Positions 9,685-19,222 are shown, counted from the first letter of the stretch. The stretch: DNA of 28,467 nt from an uncultured Ignavibacterium sp. (GCA_964602825.1 CAZRSU010000001.1:8836-37302); one strand, 5' to 3'. Program-made: numbers and translations. Notes: generated from the letters alone by a model not told the origin.

Positions 9685-9713
9685 ATGTAAATTATCAAAT
9701 ATATATTTTTCTT

Positions 9714-9925
9714 ATGCCGTAGGCATCAAATGTTTGTAGATTCACAAAAACGTATTTTATTCTTATGCCGTAGGCATAAAACATTTGTAGAATTACGAAT
9801 ACATATTTCTTTTAATGCCGTAGGCATAAAACGTTTGTAGATTTGCGAATACATATTTCCCCGTATGCCGTAGGTATTAAACGTTTGTAGAATTACGAAT
9901 ACATATTTCCCCGTATGCCGTAGGT
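9714..9925 (+). repeat. Tandem REP-like array, 5 units, period 50-51 bp (ATGCCGTAGGCAT-N9-GTAG)
   Basis: Palindrome starts at 9714, 9765, 9815, 9865, 9915. Confidence 0.9.
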
Positions 9926-10005
9926 CTTGTACATCTGCCTTCCTGCTGAACATTCTGATTATTGGCTTTGAACCTCCGATATGAACCACTGATAATTTTA
10001 TTATT

Positions 10006-10071
10006 GAACTCCTACGGAGTTCCTTAGAAAAATAAAATCTTTTGCTATAATATTAAACTCCTACGGAGTTT
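10006..10071. repeat. Pair of 17-bp palindromes AACTCCTACGGAGTT, period 49 bp
   Basis: 10006-10022 and 10055-10071; a third copy lies at 20764-20780. Confidence 0.85.
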
Positions 10072-10099
10072 ATTTTACTTGTTCAAATATTGCAAGAAG

Positions 10100-10310
10100 C
10101 CCCATCGGGGTTCAATAATGTAGCATCATCCTGTAATGTTTTCCTGAACCCCATCGGGGTTCAATAATGTAGCATCATCGTATAATTTTTTTCCTGAACC
10201 CCATCGGGGTTCAATAATGTAGCATAATCCTATAATGTTTTCCCGAACCCCGTAGGGGTTCAATAATGTAGCATCAATATTATCATTACAACACAACCCT
10301 GTAGGAGTTG
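10100..10310 (+). repeat. Tandem REP-like array, 4 units plus 1 degenerate, period 49-50 bp (CCCCATCGGGGTTCAATAATGTAG)
   Basis: Units start at 10100, 10149, 10199, 10248; degenerate unit at ~10297. Confidence 0.9.
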
Positions 10311-10458
10311 AATATTCCATCTCGTGACGGCACGCATACCGCATTTATCATCTCGCTGACGCAAGGGCCAGGGCAAGCCCACCAGCTGCAAATATTTTTT
10401 CAAAAATTACAAATCACATTTCACAAATTACATACCACATATTACATTTTAAGCCATT

Positions 10459-10530
10459 ATGCCACAGGCATAAAACGTTTGAAGCCGGTGATATTATTAT
10501 TACAATTATGCCGTAGGCATAAAACGTTTA
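10459..10530 (+). repeat. Pair of ATGCCGTAGGCAT-family units, period 49 bp
   Basis: ATGCCACAGGCATAAAACGTTT at 10459 and ATGCCGTAGGCATAAAACGTTT at 10508. Confidence 0.8.
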
Positions 10531-10680
10531 TATTTTCGCTTAGTTCCTTTCCTCTCCGCTCTGTAAATCGGAAGTGAGCAGATAAAATATGTTGTAATAA
10601 AACAATGAAATAAGTAAGTTATAATTGTTACTTTTTAGTTTTAATTGAAACTCGCTTAATACAAAAAGTAAAAGATATAA

Positions 10681-12363
10681 ATGGCAAAGAAAAACGGAAG
10701 CGGGACCGAAGAACCTTTAGAAAAACAATTGTGGAAAGCAGCTGATAAGTTAAGAAAAAATATTGACGCTGCTGAATATAAGCACATTGTCCTTGGGTTG
10801 GTCTTTCTAAAATACATCTCCGATGCATTTGAAGAATTGTTTGCTAAGCTGAAAGCCGAAGAAGCGCAGGGAGCCGACCCCGAAGACAAAGACGAATACA
10901 AAGCCGAGAATGTTTTTTTTGTTCCACCTGTGGCACGTTGGAGTTTGTTGGTTTCGTATGCCAAACAACCTTCCATTGGAATTACAATTGATGCGGCCAT
11001 GGATGCCATTGAAGCTGAAAATCCATCATTGAAAGGTGTATTGCCAAAAGTATATGCCCGACAAAATCTCGACCCGACAAGTTTGGGCGAATTGATTGAC
11101 TTAGTTGGCAACATTGCACTTGGCGATACCAAAGCCCGGAGTGCCGATGTGCTCGGGCACGTTTTTGAATATTTCCTTGGTGAATTTGCCCTTACCGAAG
11201 GCAAAAAGGGCGGACAATTCTACACCCCACGGAGTGTTGTTGAATTGTTGGTTGAAATGTTGGAACCCTATCAGGGACGTGTTTTCGACCCCTGTTGTGG
11301 TTCGGGCGGCATGTTTGTGCAATCGGAAAAATTTGTAGAAGAACGAAAAGGAAGAGTAAACGATATTTCCATATACGGACAGGAAAGCAACCAGACCACA
11401 TGGCGTTTGTGTAAAATGAATCTTGCCATTCGTGGCATTGACAGTTCGCAGGTAAAATGGAACAACGAGGGTTCGTTTTTAAACGATGCACACAAAGACC
11501 TGAAAGCCGATTATATTATTGCCAATCCCCCCTTTAACGTGAGCGACTGGGGAGGCGATTTACTTCGCAAAGACGGACGCTGGCAATATGGCGTACCGCC
11601 AACCGGTAACGCCAACTATGCCTGGATTCAACATTTCCTTTATCATTTAGCACCCAACGGACAAGCCGGTTTTATATTAGCTAAAGGTTCGCTTACAAGC
11701 AAAACTTCGGGCGAAGGTGATATTAGAAAAGCATTGATTGAAAATAATTTGATTGATTGCATTGTAAACCTGCCTGCCAAACTTTTCTTGAACACACAAA
11801 TACCAGCCTCACTTTGGTTCTTAAGAAGGAACCGGAAAAAATTCCCCTCCGTTGGAGGGGTGTCCGCCGCGGGCGGACGGGGTGGTGCATTCCCCTCCGG
11901 CGGAGGGGTGCCCGAAGGGCGGGGTGGTGAAATCCTATTTATCGATGCCCGAAACCTCGGACATTTAATAAATCGCAGAACAAAAGAGCTTTCTCAAGAA
12001 GATATACAAAAAATTGCACAAACCTATCACTCCTGGAAATTCCCCTCCGATGGAGGGGTGTTCGCTGCAGGCGAACGGGGTGGTGCATTCCCCTCCGATG
12101 GAGGGGTGTCCGAAGGACGGGGTGGTTACAAAGATATTGCCGGTTTTTGTGCAGCCGTTCCAATTAATAAAGTAAAAGAACTGGATTATGTACTTACTCC
12201 CGGGCGGTATGTAGGTTTGCCGGATGATGAAGACGACTTTAATTTTAACGAGCGTTTCACAAACCTAAAAGCCGAACTGGAAGCGCAACTAAAGGAAGAA
12301 GAGCGATTGAATAAAATAATTGCAGAAAACCTGTCCAAAATAAAACTGAATGATGAAAAGTAA
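10681..12363 (+). CDS. hsdM: Type I R-M methyltransferase subunit, carrying two 87-bp in-frame repeat insertions
   Basis: LW.AADKLR, GQFYTP, motif [10 protein letters not shown], motif IV NPPF, LF.NT.IP..LW, C-terminal LTPGRYVG. Confidence 0.96.
11842..11928 (+). repeat. In-frame coding double-hairpin repeat dimer 1 (45+3+39 bp; [29 protein letters not shown])
   Basis: Read directly from sequence; length 87 = 29 codons. Confidence 0.92.
12040..12126 (+). repeat. In-frame coding double-hairpin repeat dimer 2 (45+3+39 bp; [29 protein letters not shown])
   Basis: Read directly from sequence; same architecture as dimer 1. Confidence 0.92.
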
Positions 12364-13192
12364 AAACAGCATTATTGCAGTAAAAGGTGTAGAAGTTTCA
12401 TTTCTTCAAACTAATCGGGAAGACTATATCTGCATTACAGATATTGCAAAATTTAAAAATCCCGAAGCCCCTGCCGACATTATCAAAAACTGGCTGCGTA
12501 CTAAAAACACCATTGAACTGCTTGGACTTTGGGAAAAGTTGCATAATCCGGATTTTAAACTGGTCGAATTCGACCAGTTTAAAAACGAAGCAGGGTACAA
12601 TCACTTTGTGCTGTCACCTCAAAAATGGATAGAAACGACAAATGCCATCGGTTTGCAATCGAAATCGGGGCGATATGGCGGCACCTTTGCCCATGTGGAT
12701 ATTGCCATGGAATTCGCCTCGTGGGTTTCGGTTGAATTTAAATTCTACCTGATTAAAGAATTCCAGTATCTGAAAAACCAGCAGGATAAAGAACTCGACT
12801 GGAATATTAAACGGAAACTCACAAAAATAAATTACCGCATACACACCGATGCCATAAAGGAGAACCTGATTCCGGGCTATCTTACCCCCCAGCAAATCAG
12901 TTACGTATATGCCAACGAAGCTGATGTGCTCAACATGGCACTTTTCGGCAAAACAGCAAAACAGTGGCGCGACGAAAACCCCGAAGAAAAAGGAAATATC
13001 CGCGACTATGCCAACGTATCCCAATTGGTTTGCCTGGCTAACCTCGAAAATCTTAATGCCGTTTTTATTATCGAAGGAATGCCCCAAAATGAACGCCTGC
13101 AAAAGCTTAACCAGATTGCTATAGGGCAAATGAGGATATTACTGCAAACCGATACCGCAAAATCGCTAAAACAAGGAGGTGAAAGTGAGTGA
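12350..13192 (+). CDS. KilA-N domain DNA-binding protein
   Basis: YI.ITDIAK, NWLR...TIE.LG.WE, SPQKWI, GRYGGT.AH.DIA.EFA.W motifs; overlaps the hsdM stop and hsdS start. Confidence 0.85.
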
Positions 13193-14348
13193 GTGGAAAG
13201 AGTACAAATTTTCTGATTTCGTTGAAATAAATCCAACCGTATCATTACCTGCGAATGAGAGTATTCCTTTTGTGGAAATGAAAGATTTGAATGAAAGCCA
13301 GAAGCATTGTTATCCAAGTTCTGAAAGATACAATAGGAATGGTTCTAAGTTCCAAAATAATGATACCTTGTTTGCACGGATTACTCCTTGTCTTGAAAAT
13401 GGGAAAATATGTAAAGTTACAGGATTAAAAAACAATTTTGGATTAGGCTCGACTGAATTTCTCGTATTCAGAGGAAAAGGAGGCATTTCTGATACGAATT
13501 TTGTTTTTTATTTAGCTCGCTGGGACGATGTCAGGTCTCATGCTGAAATTAATCTTGATGGAACTTCGGGAAGGCAAAGAGTTCCCAAAGCCTGTTTTGA
13601 TGATTTAATTATAAAGGTTCCTGCTGATTTCGGAGAACAACGCTCCATTGCCTCCATCCTTTCCAGCCTTGACGACAAAATAGAACTGCTCCACCGCCAA
13701 AATGCCACCCTCGAGAAAATGGCTGAAACGCTTTTTAGGCAGTGGTTTGTGGAAGAAGCGAAGGAAGAGTGGGAAAATACAAAAATTGGTAAAATTTTGA
13801 AGACAATATTAGGGGGTACTCCTTCTACAAACAAACCAGAATATTGGGATGGAATTATTCCATGGATAAACTCAGGAGAAGTAAACAATTTTAGAATACT
13901 AAAAGGGACTAAGTTTATTACAGAACTTGGTTTGAAAAAGTCGAACACTAAATTACTACCCAAAGGGACAACGGTAATTGCAATTACGGGAGCTACACTA
14001 GGGCAAGTTAGCTTACTTGAAATTGAAACCTGTGCCAATCAATCTGTAGTGGGTATTTTACCTAATGAAATTCTTCCAAAAGAATTCATATTTCTGTGGG
14101 TAAAATTAAAAATTAAAGAAATTATTCTAAGTGAAACAGGCGGAGCTCAACCTCACATTAATAAAAATGATATTAATGAAACTGATATAATCATACCTGA
14201 TCCTGATTATTTAAAAAAGTTGAAGGAACAAATAGAACCTCTTTTTGATAAGATAACAAAAAACAGTTTTCAAATAATAAAACTACAACAACTTCGTGAA
14301 TCATTGCTGCCAAAATTAATGAGTGGGGAAGTAAAAGTTGAAATTTAA
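13185..14348 (+). CDS. hsdS: Type I R-M specificity subunit (two TRDs); GTG start at 13185 preferred over 13179
   Basis: TRD1, conserved EQ..IA.IL..LDDKIEL....N.TLE..A..LF..WF, TRD2, LR..LLPKLMSGE; AAGGAGG lies 5 nt upstream of GTG 13185. Confidence 0.93.
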   Translation: MSEWKEYKFSDFVEINPTVSLPANESIPFVEMKDLNESQKHCYPSSERYNRNGSKFQNNDTLFARITPCLENGKICKVTGLKNNFGLGSTEFLVFRGKGGISDTNFVFYLARWDDVRSHAEINLDGTSGRQRVPKACFDDLIIKVPADFGEQRSIASILSSLDDKIELLHRQNATLEKMAETLFRQWFVEEAKEEWENTKIGKILKTILGGTPSTNKPEYWDGIIPWINSGEVNNFRILKGTKFITELGLKKSNTKLLPKGTTVIAITGATLGQVSLLEIETCANQSVVGILPNEILPKEFIFLWVKLKIKEIILSETGGAQPHINKNDINETDIIIPDPDYLKKLKEQIEPLFDKITKNSFQIIKLQQLRESLLPKLMSGEVKVEI

Positions 14349-14351
14349 TAT

Positions 14352-15344
14352 ATGGAAAAAGCATCTTCAGAAAATATCGAACTGTATTGTGTAAGAGCCG
14401 AATTCGGAACTTACACTAAACAATTTATTGATGGTAATTATGTTGCAATCGGTTGGTTACCGAAAAATGACCTTTCAGGAATCACTAGCCGTGACGAATT
14501 ATATCAATTGTATAAAAAGGAATATCCAAAGGATACCAGCAATGTGGTGATTGGTCAGCAAGTTGGGCAGATCGCACGTTTTCTCTTAGAAATAAAAGCA
14601 GACGATTTTGTGATAACACCTGCACAAGACACAGAATTTATTTATTACGGTATTATGGAAGAAAATGCATATTATTTTTCTGATGGTTCAGATGGATGCC
14701 CCTATCTACACCGTAAAAAAGTTAAATGGCACAAAGAACCCATTCGGAGAAGCCAATTTTCTGTTCCTTTTCAAAACACAATCCGTTCTTCGTTGACTGT
14801 TTTTTACATCAGCCATAAAAAGAACTTTTTTACAACGATTGGAAAACCTGACTTAATTCCTGACAGCGAAAAGAAAACGGAGTTCGATTATTACACATCT
14901 GTACTTAATCGAATTCTGGAACTGGATGACAAAGAATTTGAAATATTAATCACTCATATTCTAAACGCACTGGGTTTCGAAGGTTCGGAACACAAAGGTA
15001 AAGTGGGCGATGGTGGAGTGGATGCTACCGGTGAACTAAATGTGGCAAATATGGCCAAAATAAAGCTTTTTGTACAGGCCAAACGCTATAAACGTGATTC
15101 AAGAATATCGGCTAATGTAGTAAAAGCATTAAGAGCAAATATTCCTGCAGGAGGGCAAGGTGCATTTATTACTACTGCTGATTTTCAAAAGCAGGCAAAA
15201 GATATTGCGGTAGAACAGGGCTTTCCAAGAATAGGTTTAATTAATGGCGAACAATTGGTTGATATACTTGCAGATCATTGGAATGATATACCCGTTGAGT
15301 TTCAGGAAAAGTTATCTTTAAAAGTAGGATTAGTTCCAAATTAA
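14352..15344 (+). CDS. Mrr-family (type IV-like) restriction endonuclease with an extra N-terminal domain, possibly EVE/PUA-like
   Basis: C-terminal Mrr_cat motif FE.L...L..LGF...DGGVD...VQAKRY...G.FITT..F..A...IGLI.GE.L; the N-terminal domain assignment is inference. Confidence 0.8.
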   Translation: MEKASSENIELYCVRAEFGTYTKQFIDGNYVAIGWLPKNDLSGITSRDELYQLYKKEYPKDTSNVVIGQQVGQIARFLLEIKADDFVITPAQDTEFIYYGIMEENAYYFSDGSDGCPYLHRKKVKWHKEPIRRSQFSVPFQNTIRSSLTVFYISHKKNFFTTIGKPDLIPDSEKKTEFDYYTSVLNRILELDDKEFEILITHILNALGFEGSEHKGKVGDGGVDATGELNVANMAKIKLFVQAKRYKRDSRISANVVKALRANIPAGGQGAFITTADFQKQAKDIAVEQGFPRIGLINGEQLVDILADHWNDIPVEFQEKLSLKVGLVPN

Positions 15345-15345
15345 A

Positions 15346-18300
15346 ATGACCCGAATCACAGAAAATACTATCGAATCGTTTGCAATTGAGTTATTGGACA
15401 AACTCGGTTACGAATACATTTATGCTCCGAATATTGCCCCCGATGGTGAAACACCTGAAAGGGAAACTTACGAACAGGTTTTGTTGGTTGAACGTTTACA
15501 AAATGCCGTAAAACGCATAAACAAATACATTCCTGCCGATGCACAAACCGAAGCAGTAAAAGAGATTCAGCGCATTGCTTCACCCGAACTATTGGCAAAT
15601 AATGAGGCTTTTCACCGACTTTTAACCGAAGGTATTCCGGTTTCAAAACAATTAGATGGAAACGAACGGGGCGACCGTGTCTGGCTAATTGATTTTAAAG
15701 ATCCCTACAACAACGATTTTGTAGTTGCCAATCAGTTTACAGTGGTGGAGAACAACAATAACAAACGCCCCGATGTAATTTTGTTTGTTAATGGTATTCC
15801 GTTGGTGGTAATAGAATTAAAAAATGCAGCAGACGAAAATGCTACTATTCATTCGGCATTCAAACAAATTGAAACTTATAAAACCATAATTCCAACACTT
15901 TTCACTTACAATGGGTTTGTAGTAATTTCCGACGGATTAGAAGCCAAAGCGGGTTCTATCTCGGCGGGGTTTAGTCGTTTTATGGCGTGGAAGTCAGCCG
16001 ATGGAAAAGCAGAAGCATCGCATTTGGTAAGCCAGTTAGAAACCCTTATTTTGGGTATGCTCAATAAAGAAACACTGATTGACTTAATTCGTCATTTTAT
16101 TGTATTTGAAAAATCAAAACGAGAAGACCCCGAAACGGGAATTATAACAATTACCACCGTTAAAAAACTTGCAGCTTATCATCAATATTATGCTGTAAAC
16201 CGTGCTGTGGAATCCACATTACGAGCCGCCGGTTATTCCCCTCCCTCGGAGGGGTGGCTGAAAGCCGAGGTGGTAGAAGACCCGTATGGCATCTATCGCA
16301 ACGCTCAAAACTACTTCGATCTTCCATATAACCCAAAACTTAAAGAACGCGCACGGGCATTGCGTCAAGCCGGAAACTTAACGGAAGTACTTTTCTGGAA
16401 TCAGGTTAAAAACAAAAAATTTAAAGGTTATGACTTCGACCGTCAAAAAATAATTGGAAGCTACATAGTTGACTTTTATTGCAGCAACTGTAATGTAGTG
16501 ATAGAAATAGACGGGAGCAGTCATGATGACAAAGTAGATTATGATGCAGACAGAGATGCTTATTTAAGAAGCTTGGGGTTAGAGATTATTCATATTCCTG
16601 CAACAGATGTATTGCAGAGAATGGGGAGTGTTATGGATATGCTTTACGACCACCCCGCCCTAAAGGGCACCCCTCCAGAGGAGGGGAATGAACCACCCCG
16701 TCCGCCTATGGCGGACACCCCTCCAGAGGAGGGGAATATGGTGATGGAATCACCAGAAAGTTACGGTGTACCGGGTGTAAAAAAGCAACCTGTTGGCGAC
16801 CGTAAAGGGGGGGTAGTTTGGCACACACAAGGCAGCGGTAAATCGCTTTCAATGGTTTTCTATACGGGTAAAATCGTGTTGGCAATGGATAACCCTACCA
16901 TTGTGGTTATTACCGACCGCAACGATTTGGACGACCAGCTTTTTGATACATTTGCGGCATCTAAACAGTTATTACGTCAAGAACCGGTACAAGCCGAAGA
17001 TAGAAACCAACTGAAAGAGCTTTTAAAAGTTGTTTCGGGCGGTGTAGTTTTTACAACCATTCAAAAATTCCAACCCGATAATGGCAATATTTACGAATTG
17101 CTTTCCAATCGTGAAAACATTGTGGTGATTGCTGATGAAGCACACCGCACCCAATACGGATTTAAAGCCAAAACCATTGACGATAAAAATGAAAATGGCG
17201 ATGTAATTGGTAAAAGAATAGCTTACGGTTTTGCAAAATATATGCGTGATGCTTTACCTAATGCAACCTATCTGGGTTTTACAGGCACACCCATTGAAAA
17301 TACTGATGTAAACACCCCGGCCGTCTTCGGGAATTATGTGGACATTTACGACATTGCCCAAGCCGTTGAAGACGGGGCAACTGTCCGCATTTATTACGAA
17401 AGCCGTTTGGCAAAAGTAAACCTTAGCGAAGAAGGCAAGAAGTTAGTTGATGACTTGGACGATGAACTCGACCAGGAGGATTTAACCGATACCCAAAAAG
17501 CAAAAGCTAAGTGGACACAATTGGAAGCATTGGTTGGCAGCGAAAATAGAATTAGCCAGATTGCAAAAGATATTATAGAACATTTCGAGCAACGGCAATA
17601 TGTTTTTGAAGGCAAAGGGATGATTGTTACCATGAGCCGCCGTATTGCAGCAGATTTATACGAAGCCATCATCAAGCTAAAACCCGAATGGCATTCCAAT
17701 GAGTTGAACAAAGGTGTTATCAAAGTGGTAATGACTTCTTCATCGTCCGATGGTCCAAAGATTTCACGACATCATACAACCAAGGAACAACGCCGTACTT
17801 TAGCCGAACGCATGAAAAACCCGGATGATGAACTGAAACTCGTTATCGTTCGGGATATGTGGCTCACTGGTTTTGATGCACCATGTTTACACACCCTTTA
17901 CATTGACAAACCTATGAAAGGGCATAATTTGATGCAAGCTATCGCACGGGTAAACCGTGTTTATAAGGACAAGCCGGGCGGTTTAATTGTAGATTATCTC
18001 GGCATAGCATCCGATTTAAAAAAGGCACTTTCGTTCTATTCTGATTCAGGTGGAAAAGGCGACCCGACTATTTTACAGGAACAAGCAGTTCAATTAATGT
18101 TGGAAAAACTGGAAGTCGTTTCTCAAATGTTTAATGAATTCCCCTCCACTGGAGGGGTGGACAGCGAAACTGGACGGGGTGGTTTTAACTACGAAGATTA
18201 TTTTGCAGCCGAAACATCCAAAAAGCTTTCGATGATTTTAGCAGCCGAAGATCACATTTTAGGTTTGGAAGATGGCAAGAAAAGATACATAAATGAAGTT

Positions 18301-19095
18301 TCGGCATTATCAAAAGCCTTTGCAATAGCAATTCCGCACGATAAGGCAATGGATGCCAAAGATGAAATTTCATTCTTTCAGGCAGTAAAAGCACGATTAG
18401 CAAAATTTGACGGTACAGGTTCGGGCAAAACCGATGAAGATATTGAAACAACAATCCGTCAGGTAATAGACAAAGCATTGGTTACAGAAAAAGTAATTGA
18501 TGTATTTGATGCCGCAGGGTTAAAAAAACCCGACATTTCAATACTTTCAGAAGAATTCCTTCTGGAACTAAAGGGGATGGAACATAAAAATATAGCCCTC
18601 GAAGTATTGAAAAAATTACTCAACGATGAAATAAAATCAAGGGCTAAAAAGAATCTTGTAAAGAGTAAGTCCTTGATGGAAATGTTAGAGAACGCCATTA
18701 AGAAATACCATAATAAAATACTTACAGCAGCTGAAGTTATTGAAGAACTGATAAATCTGAGTAAAGACATTGTAGAAATGGATAACGAGGCCAAAGCAAT
18801 GGGGTTATCAGATTTTGAATATGCTTTTTATACAGCAGTTGCAAACAACGACAGTGCAAGAGAACTCATGCAAAAGGACAAATTGCGTGAATTAGCCGTT
18901 GTTTTGACAGAAACTATAAAACAAAATGCCTCGATTGACTGGACTATAAAAGAAAGCGTGAAAGCCAAACTTAAAGTTGCCGTAAAAAGACTATTAAGAA
19001 AATATGGTTATCCGCCCGACATGCAAATGCTCGCAACCGAAACCGTATTGAAACAAGCTGAAATGATTGCAAATGAATTAACAAATAAGGAGTAA
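15346..19095 (+). CDS. hsdR: Type I R-M restriction subunit with an inserted DUF559 cassette and a solo repeat
   Basis: RPD..L.VNGIPLV.IELK nuclease motif, YQYYAV, Walker A HTQGSGKS, DEAH, FT.TP, MWLTGFD.P, QA.ARVNR, C-terminal DWT..ES..A. Confidence 0.96.
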   Translation: MTRITENTIESFAIELLDKLGYEYIYAPNIAPDGETPERETYEQVLLVERLQNAVKRINKYIPADAQTEAVKEIQRIASPELLANNEAFHRLLTEGIPVSKQLDGNERGDRVWLIDFKDPYNNDFVVANQFTVVENNNNKRPDVILFVNGIPLVVIELKNAADENATIHSAFKQIETYKTIIPTLFTYNGFVVISDGLEAKAGSISAGFSRFMAWKSADGKAEASHLVSQLETLILGMLNKETLIDLIRHFIVFEKSKREDPETGIITITTVKKLAAYHQYYAVNRAVESTLRAAGYSPPSEGWLKAEVVEDPYGIYRNAQNYFDLPYNPKLKERARALRQAGNLTEVLFWNQVKNKKFKGYDFDRQKIIGSYIVDFYCSNCNVVIEIDGSSHDDKVDYDADRDAYLRSLGLEIIHIPATDVLQRMGSVMDMLYDHPALKGTPPEEGNEPPRPPMADTPPEEGNMVMESPESYGVPGVKKQPVGDRKGGVVWHTQGSGKSLSMVFYTGKIVLAMDNPTIVVITDRNDLDDQLFDTFAASKQLLRQEPVQAEDRNQLKELLKVVSGGVVFTTIQKFQPDNGNIYELLSNRENIVVIADEAHRTQYGFKAKTIDDKNENGDVIGKRIAYGFAKYMRDALPNATYLGFTGTPIENTDVNTPAVFGNYVDIYDIAQAVEDGATVRIYYESRLAKVNLSEEGKKLVDDLDDELDQEDLTDTQKAKAKWTQLEALVGSENRISQIAKDIIEHFEQRQYVFEGKGMIVTMSRRIAADLYEAIIKLKPEWHSNELNKGVIKVVMTSSSSDGPKISRHHTTKEQRRTLAERMKNPDDELKLVIVRDMWLTGFDAPCLHTLYIDKPMKGHNLMQAIARVNRVYKDKPGGLIVDYLGIASDLKKALSFYSDSGGKGDPTILQEQAVQLMLEKLEVVSQMFNEFPSTGGVDSETGRGGFNYEDYFAAETSKKLSMILAAEDHILGLEDGKKRYINEVSALSKAFAIAIPHDKAMDAKDEISFFQAVKARLAKFDGTGSGKTDEDIETTIRQVIDKALVTEKVIDVFDAAGLKKPDISILSEEFLLELKGMEHKNIALEVLKKLLNDEIKSRAKKNLVKSKSLMEMLENAIKKYHNKILTAAEVIEELINLSKDIVEMDNEAKAMGLSDFEYAFYTAVANNDSARELMQKDKLRELAVVLTETIKQNASIDWTIKESVKAKLKVAVKRLLRKYGYPPDMQMLATETVLKQAEMIANELTNKE
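16236..16736 (+). mobile_element. 501-bp in-frame cassette: DUF559 (Vsr-like PD-(D/E)XK) endonuclease domain flanked by inverted double-hairpin repeats
   Basis: Left unit 16236-16274 (+); right dimer 16649-16688 and 16692-16736 (-); core LPYNPKLKERAR.LR....E..FW, FDRQK.IG.YIVDFYC, VIEIDG.SH; 501 = 167 codons. Mobility is inferred. Confidence 0.8.
18139..18183 (+). repeat. Solo in-frame coding double-hairpin repeat in hsdR (FPSTGGVDSETGRGG)
   Basis: 45 bp; hairpin A intact, hairpin B partly degraded. Confidence 0.88.
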
Positions 19096-19222
19096 AATTT
19101 ATATTGTAAATCCGGCACTTTTCAACAAAAAGGTAAATTCACAGAACAGTGTTTTAACGGTAATTTGAACAACAATAAAAAGGCATTGAACAACAAGATT
19201 TTCTTTTCAACACACAAAGAAT

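What the first reader, a model, noticed from the sequence alone, without database searches (positions are those of the whole stretch)
16236..16736. Candidate new mobile system: DUF559 endonuclease flanked by inverted double-hairpin repeats, inserted in frame into HsdR
Seen: a 501-bp (167-codon) block starts TTCCCCTCC and ends GGAGGGGAA. It has one repeat unit on the left and an inverted 40+3+45 dimer on the right, the same long-plus-short dimer design found in hsdM. Between them is a complete DUF559/Vsr-like domain with no start or stop of its own. Excising the block rejoins RAAGY-MVMESPESYG and restores a normal spacing from YQYYAV to Walker A; removing both hsdR inserts leaves 1067 aa, a usual HsdR size. 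Known: RAYT genes are flanked by inverted REPs that also spread as non-autonomous REPINs, but RAYTs are HUH enzymes, and DUF559 is a PD-(D/E)XK nuclease of unknown role. Inference: DUF559 is the mobiliser (or homing nuclease) of this repeat family, and the stop-poor, frame-preserving repeats let the element live as a protein-domain passenger. I know of no formal description of this system but cannot check the literature.
Basis: partly seen in the sequence, partly recalled or inferred. Interest (0 to 1): 0.92.

Follow-up and report, generated by a model that had tools for sequence, protein, structure and literature searches.

The report
In-frame DUF559 nuclease cassette in HsdR
A 501-bp block that encodes a small DNA-cutting domain and ends in folded G/C-rich repeats sits in frame inside a restriction-enzyme gene; it belongs to a widespread, apparently undescribed family of selfish cassettes that have been gained and lost many times, but it is not shown that the nuclease itself moves them.

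Summary
Window 16236-16736 is a 501-nt in-frame block in hsdR. It holds a full DUF559 (Vsr-like) domain, with one repeat unit on the left and an inverted long+short pair on the right. The "double hairpin" is better described as an intrastrand triplex motif of the BoxC/PIT/TM kind.

This is not a recent one-off insertion. HsdR with this cassette at this site is a large subfamily found in many phyla. Empty alleles exist at 80-96% identity. On a tree of 106 alleles, filled and empty states change at least 12 times, always with the same junction. The cassette replaces 27 native bases and there is no target duplication. Footprint alleles also exist.

The DUF559-repeat link is general. Hairpins are about 15 times denser next to DUF559 than further off in the same loci. 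Solo repeats occur in operons with a filled hsdR (36 in 386 kb) and almost never in empty ones (2 in about 370 kb). In this genome all 8 copies lie in this one operon.

Against the bold reading, three other genomes carry amplified copies of such repeats without a matching DUF559, two of them with no DUF559 at all. The reading is partly supported.

Earlier agents of this scan reported the same cassette class on other DNA. I found no paper that describes it.

The parts
10681..12363 (+). hsdM (type I methylase), carrier of two solo repeat dimers
   Evidence: Pfam N6_Mtase and HsdM_N
11841..11930 (+). Repeat dimer 1 in hsdM (48-nt long unit + 42-nt short unit). It is read in frame and replaces a native loop of about 9 residues.
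   Evidence: the same site is hit in other operons in either orientation
12039..12128 (+). Repeat dimer 2 in hsdM (48 + 42 nt), read in frame, replaces 4 native codons
15346..19095 (+). hsdR, 1249 aa, host gene of the cassette
   Evidence: Pfam HSDR_N, SWI2_SNF2, T1R_D3-like, T1RH-like_C
16236..16736 (+). The cassette: 501 nt, in frame, between the YHQYYAV motif and Walker A. It stands in place of 27 native bases.
16235..16276 (+). Left terminal repeat unit (short type): pyrimidine arm, purine arm, mini-hairpin, G/T third arm
16336..16647 (+). DUF559 / Vsr-like PD-(D/E)XK nuclease core (HsdR aa 331-434)
   Evidence: Pfam E 1e-27. PDB 3HRL by sequence, E 2e-14. Model pLDDT 75-93 in the core, with fold match to 3HRL (TM 0.84) and to I-Bth0305I (TM 0.66-0.74). 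D, E-x-D and H invariant in 24 homologs.
16649..16737 (-). Right terminal repeat pair (short 16649-16690, long 16691-16737), inverted relative to the left unit
18138..18185 (+). Solo long repeat unit in hsdR (48 nt, in frame). It is absent from empty operons and present as 3 units in L204.
12350..15344 (+). Rest of the operon: KilA-N protein, hsdS, Mrr_cat nuclease-like gene. None carries a repeat.
   Evidence: repeat scan

Best explanation
The block is one member of a widespread family of small selfish cassettes. Each is a DUF559 (Vsr-like) nuclease reading frame bounded by inverted copies of a G/C-rich intrastrand-triplex-type repeat. The cassette lodges in surface loops of proteins and is translated through as part of the host protein, with no intron or intein.

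In this HsdR lineage the cassette occupies one fixed site between the Q-like motif and Walker A. It spreads and is lost allele by allele through homologous replacement (homing-like gene conversion), not by cut-and-paste. Every filled allele has the same junction, 27 native bases are missing, and there is no target duplication. Loss by slippage between the palindromic end hairpins leaves a one-hairpin footprint.

The repeat-coded Pro/Gly-rich stretches act as flexible linkers. The type I restriction operon, itself horizontally mobile, is the vehicle; that would explain why all 8 repeat copies of this genome lie in it.

Shown: the anatomy; the general DUF559-repeat link; repeated gain and loss; purifying selection on the nuclease; solo repeats only in operons that carry the cassette.

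Inferred: that the DUF559 domain is the nuclease that starts these events, by cutting the empty site or the folded repeat.
For: - Anatomy.
- Subfamily size: all 120 best HsdR relatives (60-85% identity) carry DUF559 at the same site, with 1-6 left and 1-4 right translated repeat units. Filled alleles occur in Bacteroidota, Cloacimonadales, Calditrichia, Cyanobacteria, Brocadiaceae, Elusimicrobia, Verrucomicrobiota and a Methanophagales archaeon.
- Empty alleles: 80-85% identity by tblastn. G024 sits next to filled alleles on branches of 0.015-0.025.
- State changes: on 106 alleles, 19 changes are needed and 12 are forced by branches with at least 95% support.
- Junctions and footprints.
- Independent insertions: a different DUF559 lineage in the same loop (L149) and a second site near aa 265.
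- Other hosts: cassettes of the window's own lineage sit in Type ISP/IIG enzymes and N6_N4 methylases; other lineages sit in MetH, LeuRS and UvrC.
- Selection: the core is as conserved as the host (aa identity 0.853 against 0.828). dN/dS is 0.09 where synonymous sites are not saturated.
- Hairpin density beside DUF559: 3.1/kb within 260 nt against 0.20/kb further off, in 28 loci chosen by HMM score.
- Solo hairpins: 36 in 386 kb of filled loci against 2 in about 370 kb of empty ones. In the operons fetched from the 401-genome sample, the 14 empty ones (150 kb) hold none.
- Confinement: G000 has 8 of 8 and G221 has 5 of 5 genome copies inside the operon.
- Fold: resembles the catalytic domain of the homing endonuclease I-Bth0305I.
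Against: - No nuclease activity, cut site or target preference is known.
- Repeats of the same design have amplified recently in genomes with no DUF559 (G332, G324).
- In G001 the 70-copy family does not match the ends of its DUF559 genes.
- Plain recombination between restriction-gene alleles could give the same filled/empty mosaic without any nuclease.
- Strong, long-lasting purifying selection on the domain is equally what a domesticated, host-useful domain would show.
- In G185 the flanking repeats are decayed while the DUF559 core is intact.
- No empty variant was seen in the two source-like samples, though only contigs were available.
Confidence: 0.55

Rival explanations
1. Passenger model. 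The triplex-type repeats are the primary unstable or mobile entity. They are spread by replication slippage, template switching or an unknown enzyme. The DUF559 frame is cargo caught between two of them, and its own job is something else, for example processing the odd DNA structures the repeats form.
For: G332 and G324 hold 19 and 11 near-identical copies and no DUF559. G001 holds 70 dispersed copies of this family with no cognate DUF559. Twelve of the 57 genomes with 3 or more hairpins lack a strong DUF559 hit. Holder et al. 2015 found no mobility genes near the E. coli copies and linked the motif to local instability (PMC4666352). Insertions replace 12-27 native bases without duplication, as repair or slippage events would.
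Against: Hairpins are 15-fold enriched right beside DUF559. They flank it as inverted pairs in many phyla. Solo copies are nearly absent from homologous operons without the cassette. The nuclease is under strong purifying selection inside very different hosts. A cargo with no role in spread would be expected to decay.
Confidence: 0.25
2. Domesticated-domain model. An old insertion has become a working part of this HsdR subfamily, for instance a second nuclease or a sensor of mismatched or modified DNA. Filled and empty alleles are swapped by ordinary recombination between restriction systems.
For: The subfamily is large and present in many phyla, with an invariant catalytic motif. dN/dS is 0.09. 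The core is intact where the repeats have decayed (G185). The window's DUF559 lineage prefers restriction-modification genes.
Against: Cassettes with the same architecture sit in MetH, LeuRS, UvrC and an acetyltransferase, where an HsdR-specific role makes no sense. There are at least 12 supported state changes and footprint alleles within one close clade. Different DUF559 lineages entered the same loop independently.
Confidence: 0.17
3. REP/RAYT-like system with a new enzyme. DUF559 recognises the folded repeat, moves it in trans and keeps the scattered copies alike, as RAYT does for REPINs.
For: Inverted repeats bracket the gene. Genomes with 5 or more hairpins carry DUF559 in 82% of cases against 41% of the others (odds ratio 6.7, not corrected for kinship).
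Against: In G001 the scattered family differs from the ends of the gene. In this genome there are no scattered copies at all. Bursts occur without DUF559.
Confidence: 0.12

Closest known systems
BoxC / PIT / TM (TMECO) intrastrand triplex repeats (Holder et al. 2015, PMC4666352; earlier Hoyne and Maher, as cited there)
   Same: Same layout as the class II purine motif: 5' pyrimidine arm, purine arm, then a 3' G/T arm that mirrors the purine arm. G/C-rich, multi-copy, found in many phyla, linked to local instability, and no known protein partner.
   Different: Here the second loop holds an extra hairpin. The copies lie inside genes and are translated, whereas TMECO is described as 'always intergenic'. 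They bracket a nuclease frame, whereas the paper reports that no mobility functions were ever found nearby. I did not test identity to the E. coli consensus.
Vsr-like (EDxHD) homing endonucleases such as I-Bth0305I (PMC3239194; 'fractured genes', PMC2677866)
   Same: Related fold (3R3P, TM 0.66-0.74). A fixed site in a conserved gene. Presence/absence polymorphism. Spread compatible with gene conversion.
   Different: Those enzymes sit in group I introns or between split-intein halves, so the host protein is restored. Here nothing is removed and the nuclease stays inside the protein. Here the ends are inverted structured repeats. No cleavage data exist.
REP/REPIN-RAYT systems
   Same: A small enzyme gene bracketed by inverted structured repeats, which also occur alone.
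   Different: The enzyme is PD-(D/E)XK, not an HUH Y1 transposase. The scattered copies do not match the ends of the gene in the one genome tested (G001). In this genome the copies are confined to one operon.
Rickettsia palindromic elements (in-frame repeats; reviewed in PMC10969869, seen by title and search hit only; the rest from my own knowledge)
   Same: Short palindromic repeats inserted in frame in protein-coding genes and tolerated as extra loops.
   Different: RPEs carry no gene and have no known partner enzyme. Here the repeats bound a nuclease frame, and solo units recur at the same loops.
Inteins with homing endonuclease domains
   Same: In-frame selfish insert with a nuclease in a conserved protein, near a nucleotide-binding motif, with empty alleles in relatives.
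   Different: No Hint/splicing domain was found. The insert must stay in the mature protein.

Membership tests
DUF559 (PF04480), Vsr-like PD-(D/E)XK nuclease | Match to the family profile above the curated cut-off, over nearly its whole length | tested here: met
   96-100 bits against a cut-off of 20.6, profile positions 2-105 of 109
DUF559 (PF04480), Vsr-like PD-(D/E)XK nuclease | Fold of the solved family member | tested here: met
   3HRL: E 2e-14 by sequence; TM 0.84 and rmsd 1.5 A by fold; core pLDDT 75-93
DUF559 (PF04480), Vsr-like PD-(D/E)XK nuclease | Conserved acidic/His active-site motif (..VDF.. / ..E-I-D-G..H) | tested here: met
   D152, E163, D165 and H169 of alignment A1 are invariant in 24 homologs. 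The motif is visible in all 120 listed loops. Activity was not tested.
Intrastrand triplex motif repeats (BoxC/PIT/TM, class II) | Order of arms: pyrimidine arm, purine arm, 3' reverse-Hoogsteen G/T arm that mirrors the purine arm | tested here: met
   A mirror arm lies downstream in 422 of 930 strand instances (about 90% of hairpins), against 158 for a direct-copy control. This also holds for variant arms.
Intrastrand triplex motif repeats (BoxC/PIT/TM, class II) | Many dispersed, intergenic copies in a genome | tested here: not met
   In this genome there are 8 copies, all inside hsdM and hsdR. The feature is met elsewhere: G001 has 70 dispersed copies.
Intrastrand triplex motif repeats (BoxC/PIT/TM, class II) | Forms a triplex as an isolated strand | not testable with these tools
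   Needs CD/NMR as in PMC4666352
REP/REPIN-RAYT | HUH Y1 transposase between the repeats | tested here: not met
   The enzyme is PD-(D/E)XK. G001 has only a weak Y1_Tnp hit, with no such repeats beside it.
REP/REPIN-RAYT | The repeats flanking the gene are the same family as the scattered copies | tested here: not met
   G001: the 70 scattered copies are of one variant. The 11 copies of the gene-flanking variant cluster at the two genes and one further site.
Homing endonuclease element | Fixed insertion site with filled and empty alleles interleaved among close relatives | tested here: met
   At least 12 supported changes on 106 alleles; one junction throughout
Homing endonuclease element | Intron or intein that restores the host product | tested here: not met
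   No Hint or intron-related domain. No RNA family match. The frame is read through.
Homing endonuclease element | Nuclease cuts the empty allele | not testable with these tools
   Needs a cleavage assay on the E65 site
In-frame palindromic repeats of the RPE type | Non-coding palindromic repeat inserted in frame into ORFs and tolerated | tested here: met
   Solo units in hsdM and hsdR are 42 or 48 nt long and nearly stop-free in six frames

The most novel reading that the evidence does not exclude
DUF559, one of the large 'unknown function' families, is the dedicated nuclease of the 30-year-old orphan BoxC/PIT/TM triplex repeats. It recognises the folded repeat or the empty site. It drives homing and occasional ectopic insertion of an in-frame, splice-free cassette into restriction genes and housekeeping genes. 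It seeds solo repeats around itself.
Probability: 0.3. Interest if true: 0.9.

Novelty: new variant of a known kind. Interest (0 to 1): 0.72.

Why it matters
If the cassette reading holds, a very common domain of unknown function gets a role. A class of conserved bacterial repeats known since the 1990s gets a candidate protein partner. A third way for a nuclease gene to live inside a protein-coding gene is added to introns and inteins: it simply stays in the protein on flexible repeat-coded linkers.

It also bears on genome annotation. "Fusions" of DUF559 with HsdR, MetH, LeuRS, UvrC and methylases would be parasites, not domain architectures. And it bears on the evolution of restriction systems, which here serve as vehicles for the cassette.

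The filled/empty allele pairs at 87-91% DNA identity found here give a directly testable target site.

Tried and rejected
- Rfam scan of 10000-19200 at E <= 1: only one sub-threshold chance hit, so this is no known RNA.
- RAYT as the enzyme: only a weak Y1_Tnp hit in the repeat-rich genome G001, with no repeats beside it.
- Reads: two sludge runs hold the identical filled allele. All runs are kept as contigs, which drop rare variants. The joints in other runs have short sides and low likeness. This says nothing for or against excision.
- Host-versus-cassette identity as a test of horizontal movement: Spearman 0.39, but the core is short and my extraction was uneven for a few rows. Not decisive.
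- dN/dS: synonymous sites are saturated in 224 of 231 pairs, so only 7 pairs were usable.
- Structure of the fragment 225-545: only the DUF559 core folds with confidence. The low confidence of the flanks partly reflects the cut context and the shallow alignment, so I do not use it as proof of disorder.
- Literature: searches on DUF559, Vsr-like with repeat, HsdR with very short patch, and in-frame palindromic elements found no description of this cassette. The 'DUF559' hit in the S. suis preprint is DUF5590.
- I did not run complex prediction, because no protein-protein claim is made.

Full report
WHAT IS THERE

The window carries a type I restriction operon: hsdM 10681-12363, a KilA-N gene, hsdS, an Mrr_cat gene, and hsdR 15346-19095. 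The finding's coordinates are exact. 16236-16736 is 501 nt, begins TTCCCCTCC and ends GGAGGGGAA. It encodes a full DUF559 domain (PF04480, E 1e-27, profile positions 2-105 of 109) between the HSDR_N nuclease domain and the SWI2/SNF2 motor.

One repeat unit lies on the left (16235-16276, + orientation). An inverted short+long pair lies on the right (16649-16737). The same long+short dimer occurs twice in hsdM, and one more long unit lies at 18138-18185 in hsdR. Units are 42 or 47-48 nt long and almost free of stops in all six frames.

In the 2.42-Mb, 521-contig genome these 8 units are the only copies, and this is the only DUF559.

WHAT THE REPEAT IS

The unit has a pyrimidine arm (CCCCTCC), a short loop, a purine arm (GGAGGGG), a small variable hairpin, and then GGGGTGG. 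That last arm is the mirror image of the purine arm, with T opposite A. This is the rule for a purine-motif intrastrand triplex.

Over all hairpins in the loci fetched, a mirror arm lies downstream in 422 of 930 strand instances, which is about 90% of hairpins. A direct-copy control gave 158. The relation also holds for variant arms such as GAGGGGG/GGGGGTG.

This is the layout that Holder et al. 2015 call a class II triplex motif (BoxC = PIT = TM). They report it as conserved in over 260 genomes, 'always intergenic' in E. coli, linked to local instability, and never found with mobility genes (PMC4666352). The lead to that literature came from earlier notes of this scan. I tested the mirror rule myself. 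Rfam has nothing here.

NOT A YOUNG ONE-OFF INSERTION

All 120 best relatives of the HsdR loop region (60-85% identity) carry DUF559 at the same place. They have 1-6 translated repeat units on the left and 1-4 on the right, in both reading frames. Filled alleles occur in many phyla and in one archaeal MAG.

The DUF559 core is as conserved as the host protein (mean identity 0.853 against 0.828). Its D / E-x-D / H motif is invariant. Where synonymous sites are not saturated, dN/dS is 0.09, against 0.055 for the host (7 pairs).

The core folds confidently (pLDDT 75-93). It matches 3HRL (TM 0.84) and the catalytic domain of the homing endonuclease I-Bth0305I (TM 0.66-0.74).

EMPTY ALLELES AND TURNOVER

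I searched 401 genomes of the phylum. Many HsdR genes matched residues 1-296 and 466-1246 but not the block, at 73-85% identity.

The common empty type keeps a conserved native stretch, RATG[FY]-T[LV]E[KH]ETPxS-MVMESPESYG. Filled alleles have the cassette in place of those 27 bases, with the same junction throughout and no target duplication. The DNA right of the block is identical between the window and the empty G024 allele for 26 bases.

Two alleles (L251, L252) read N-[LS]-P-[PT]-x-E-G-N at the site. That is one hybrid hairpin, the product expected if the cassette is deleted between its two palindromic end hairpins.

On a maximum-likelihood tree of the host parts of 106 alleles (59 filled, 47 empty; the loop left out), the states need 19 changes, and 12 are forced by branches with at least 95% support. 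Filled and empty alleles sit side by side on very short branches, and the footprint allele L251 is sister to a filled one (a smaller tree).

A native 27-base stretch cannot be restored by deletion. These changes are therefore allele replacements: gain by copying from a filled allele, or loss by copying from an empty one. That is the pattern homing produces. Ordinary recombination between restriction alleles would produce it too.

INDEPENDENT INSERTIONS AND OTHER HOSTS

- A different DUF559 lineage, with different end hairpins, sits in the same loop of a distant HsdR clade (L149).
- A second site near aa 265 is used in another clade.
- A solo hairpin of another family occupies the loop in L148.
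- On a DUF559 tree, the window's lineage includes free-standing genes from several phyla and in-frame cassettes in Type ISP/IIG enzymes and N6_N4 methylases.
- Other lineages sit in MetH, LeuRS, UvrC, a UvrA paralog and an acetyltransferase.

So the cassette has entered unrelated genes. The window's lineage seems to favour restriction-modification genes.

IS DUF559 TIED TO THE REPEAT?

Evidence that it is:
- In 28 loci picked by DUF559 HMM score alone, 22 have a perfect pyrimidine/purine hairpin within 260 nt of the domain and 14 have one on both sides. The density is 3.1/kb near the domain against 0.20/kb further off.
- Starting from the repeat instead, 13 of the 120 loci fetched by the repeat pattern hold a DUF559, about 10 of them directly beside the repeat. 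Free-standing genes have a + unit upstream and - units downstream.
- Across 401 genomes, 82% of those with 5 or more hairpins have a strong DUF559 hit, against 41% of the rest. The odds ratio is 6.7; it is not corrected for kinship.
- The cleanest contrast uses homologous operons. Outside the cassette, 30 filled loci hold 36 hairpins in 386 kb, while 32 empty loci hold 2 in about 370 kb. In the operons fetched from the 401-genome sample, the 14 empty ones (150 kb) hold none.
- The solo units recur at the same few loops: HsdM near aa 390 and 455, and HsdR near aa 35, 725 and 930-1000. They differ between operons in orientation and number, and each replaces 12-27 native bases.
- In G000 and G221 every genome copy lies in the operon.

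IS DUF559 THE MOBILISER?

This is not shown, and there is evidence against its being necessary:
- G332 has 19 copies and G324 has 11, alike over 100 nt or more, which points to recent bursts. Neither has any DUF559 hit at E <= 1e-3 in a genome scored 100% complete.
- G001 has 70 dispersed copies of the very family seen here. Its two DUF559 genes are flanked by another variant, and the 11 copies of that variant cluster at the two genes and one further site.
- The picture that fits both sets of facts is this: repeats tied to a DUF559 cassette stay local, while large dispersed families spread by some other means.
- Reads did not help. Only contigs were available.

VERDICT

The block is a mobile, in-frame, repeat-bounded nuclease cassette with clear empty and footprint alleles. 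The role of its nuclease as the driver, and above all as the mobiliser of the whole repeat family, remains an inference with real counter-evidence.

Earlier agents of this scan reported the same class in leuS, queA, an aminotransferase, an RNase H gene and at E. coli ycjD. I found no paper that describes it.

What this window adds:
- a large natural series of filled, empty and footprint alleles at one site;
- the replacement-type junction;
- the matched-operon contrast for solo repeats;
- the preference of one DUF559 lineage for restriction-modification genes.

Noticed in passing
window 9703-9924 and 10100-10314: Two arrays of 49-50-nt tandem repeats lie just upstream of hsdM, each unit with a small hairpin (TATGCCGTAGGCATA; AACCCCATCGGGGTT). 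Their cores occur 94 and 17 times in the genome on 35 and 11 contigs. These are other, A/T-richer repeat families, unrelated in sequence to the one studied.
   Followed up: partly
P0107, P0111, P0117 (HsdR homologs): Some filled HsdR alleles carry a second in-frame insert, a GIY-YIG nuclease domain (PF01541), a few residues downstream of the DUF559 cassette. This is another small nuclease living in frame in the same loop.
   Followed up: no
P0048, P0049, P0073-P0075 (HsdR homologs, 1394-1462 aa): These longer filled alleles also list PF15143 among their Pfam hits. I did not check what that extra stretch is.
   Followed up: no
L148 (G194) and L149 (G354), HsdR loop: The same HsdR loop holds a solo hairpin of another family (CTCTCCCC / GGGGAGAG) in L148. 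In L149 it holds a different DUF559 subtype with CCTCTCCC-type ends. The loop is a hot spot for several repeat families.
   Followed up: partly
L163, L166 (MetH), L160 (LeuRS), L159 (UvrC), L086 (UvrA paralog): Housekeeping genes of the same phylum carry in-frame DUF559 cassettes, read through in open frames of 860-1110 aa.
   Followed up: partly
G001 (OW818676.1) C1:3013218-3013769: A third inverted pair of the DUF559-type hairpin variant lies 532 nt apart, with no DUF559 hit between the arms. It could be a dead or emptied cassette.
   Followed up: no
window 12350-13192 and 14352-15344: The type I operon is interrupted by a KilA-N domain gene and an Mrr_cat restriction-nuclease-like gene. Related operons carry other genes in between (RhuM-like in L284; Peptidase_M78 just upstream of hsdR in L285).
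   Followed up: no
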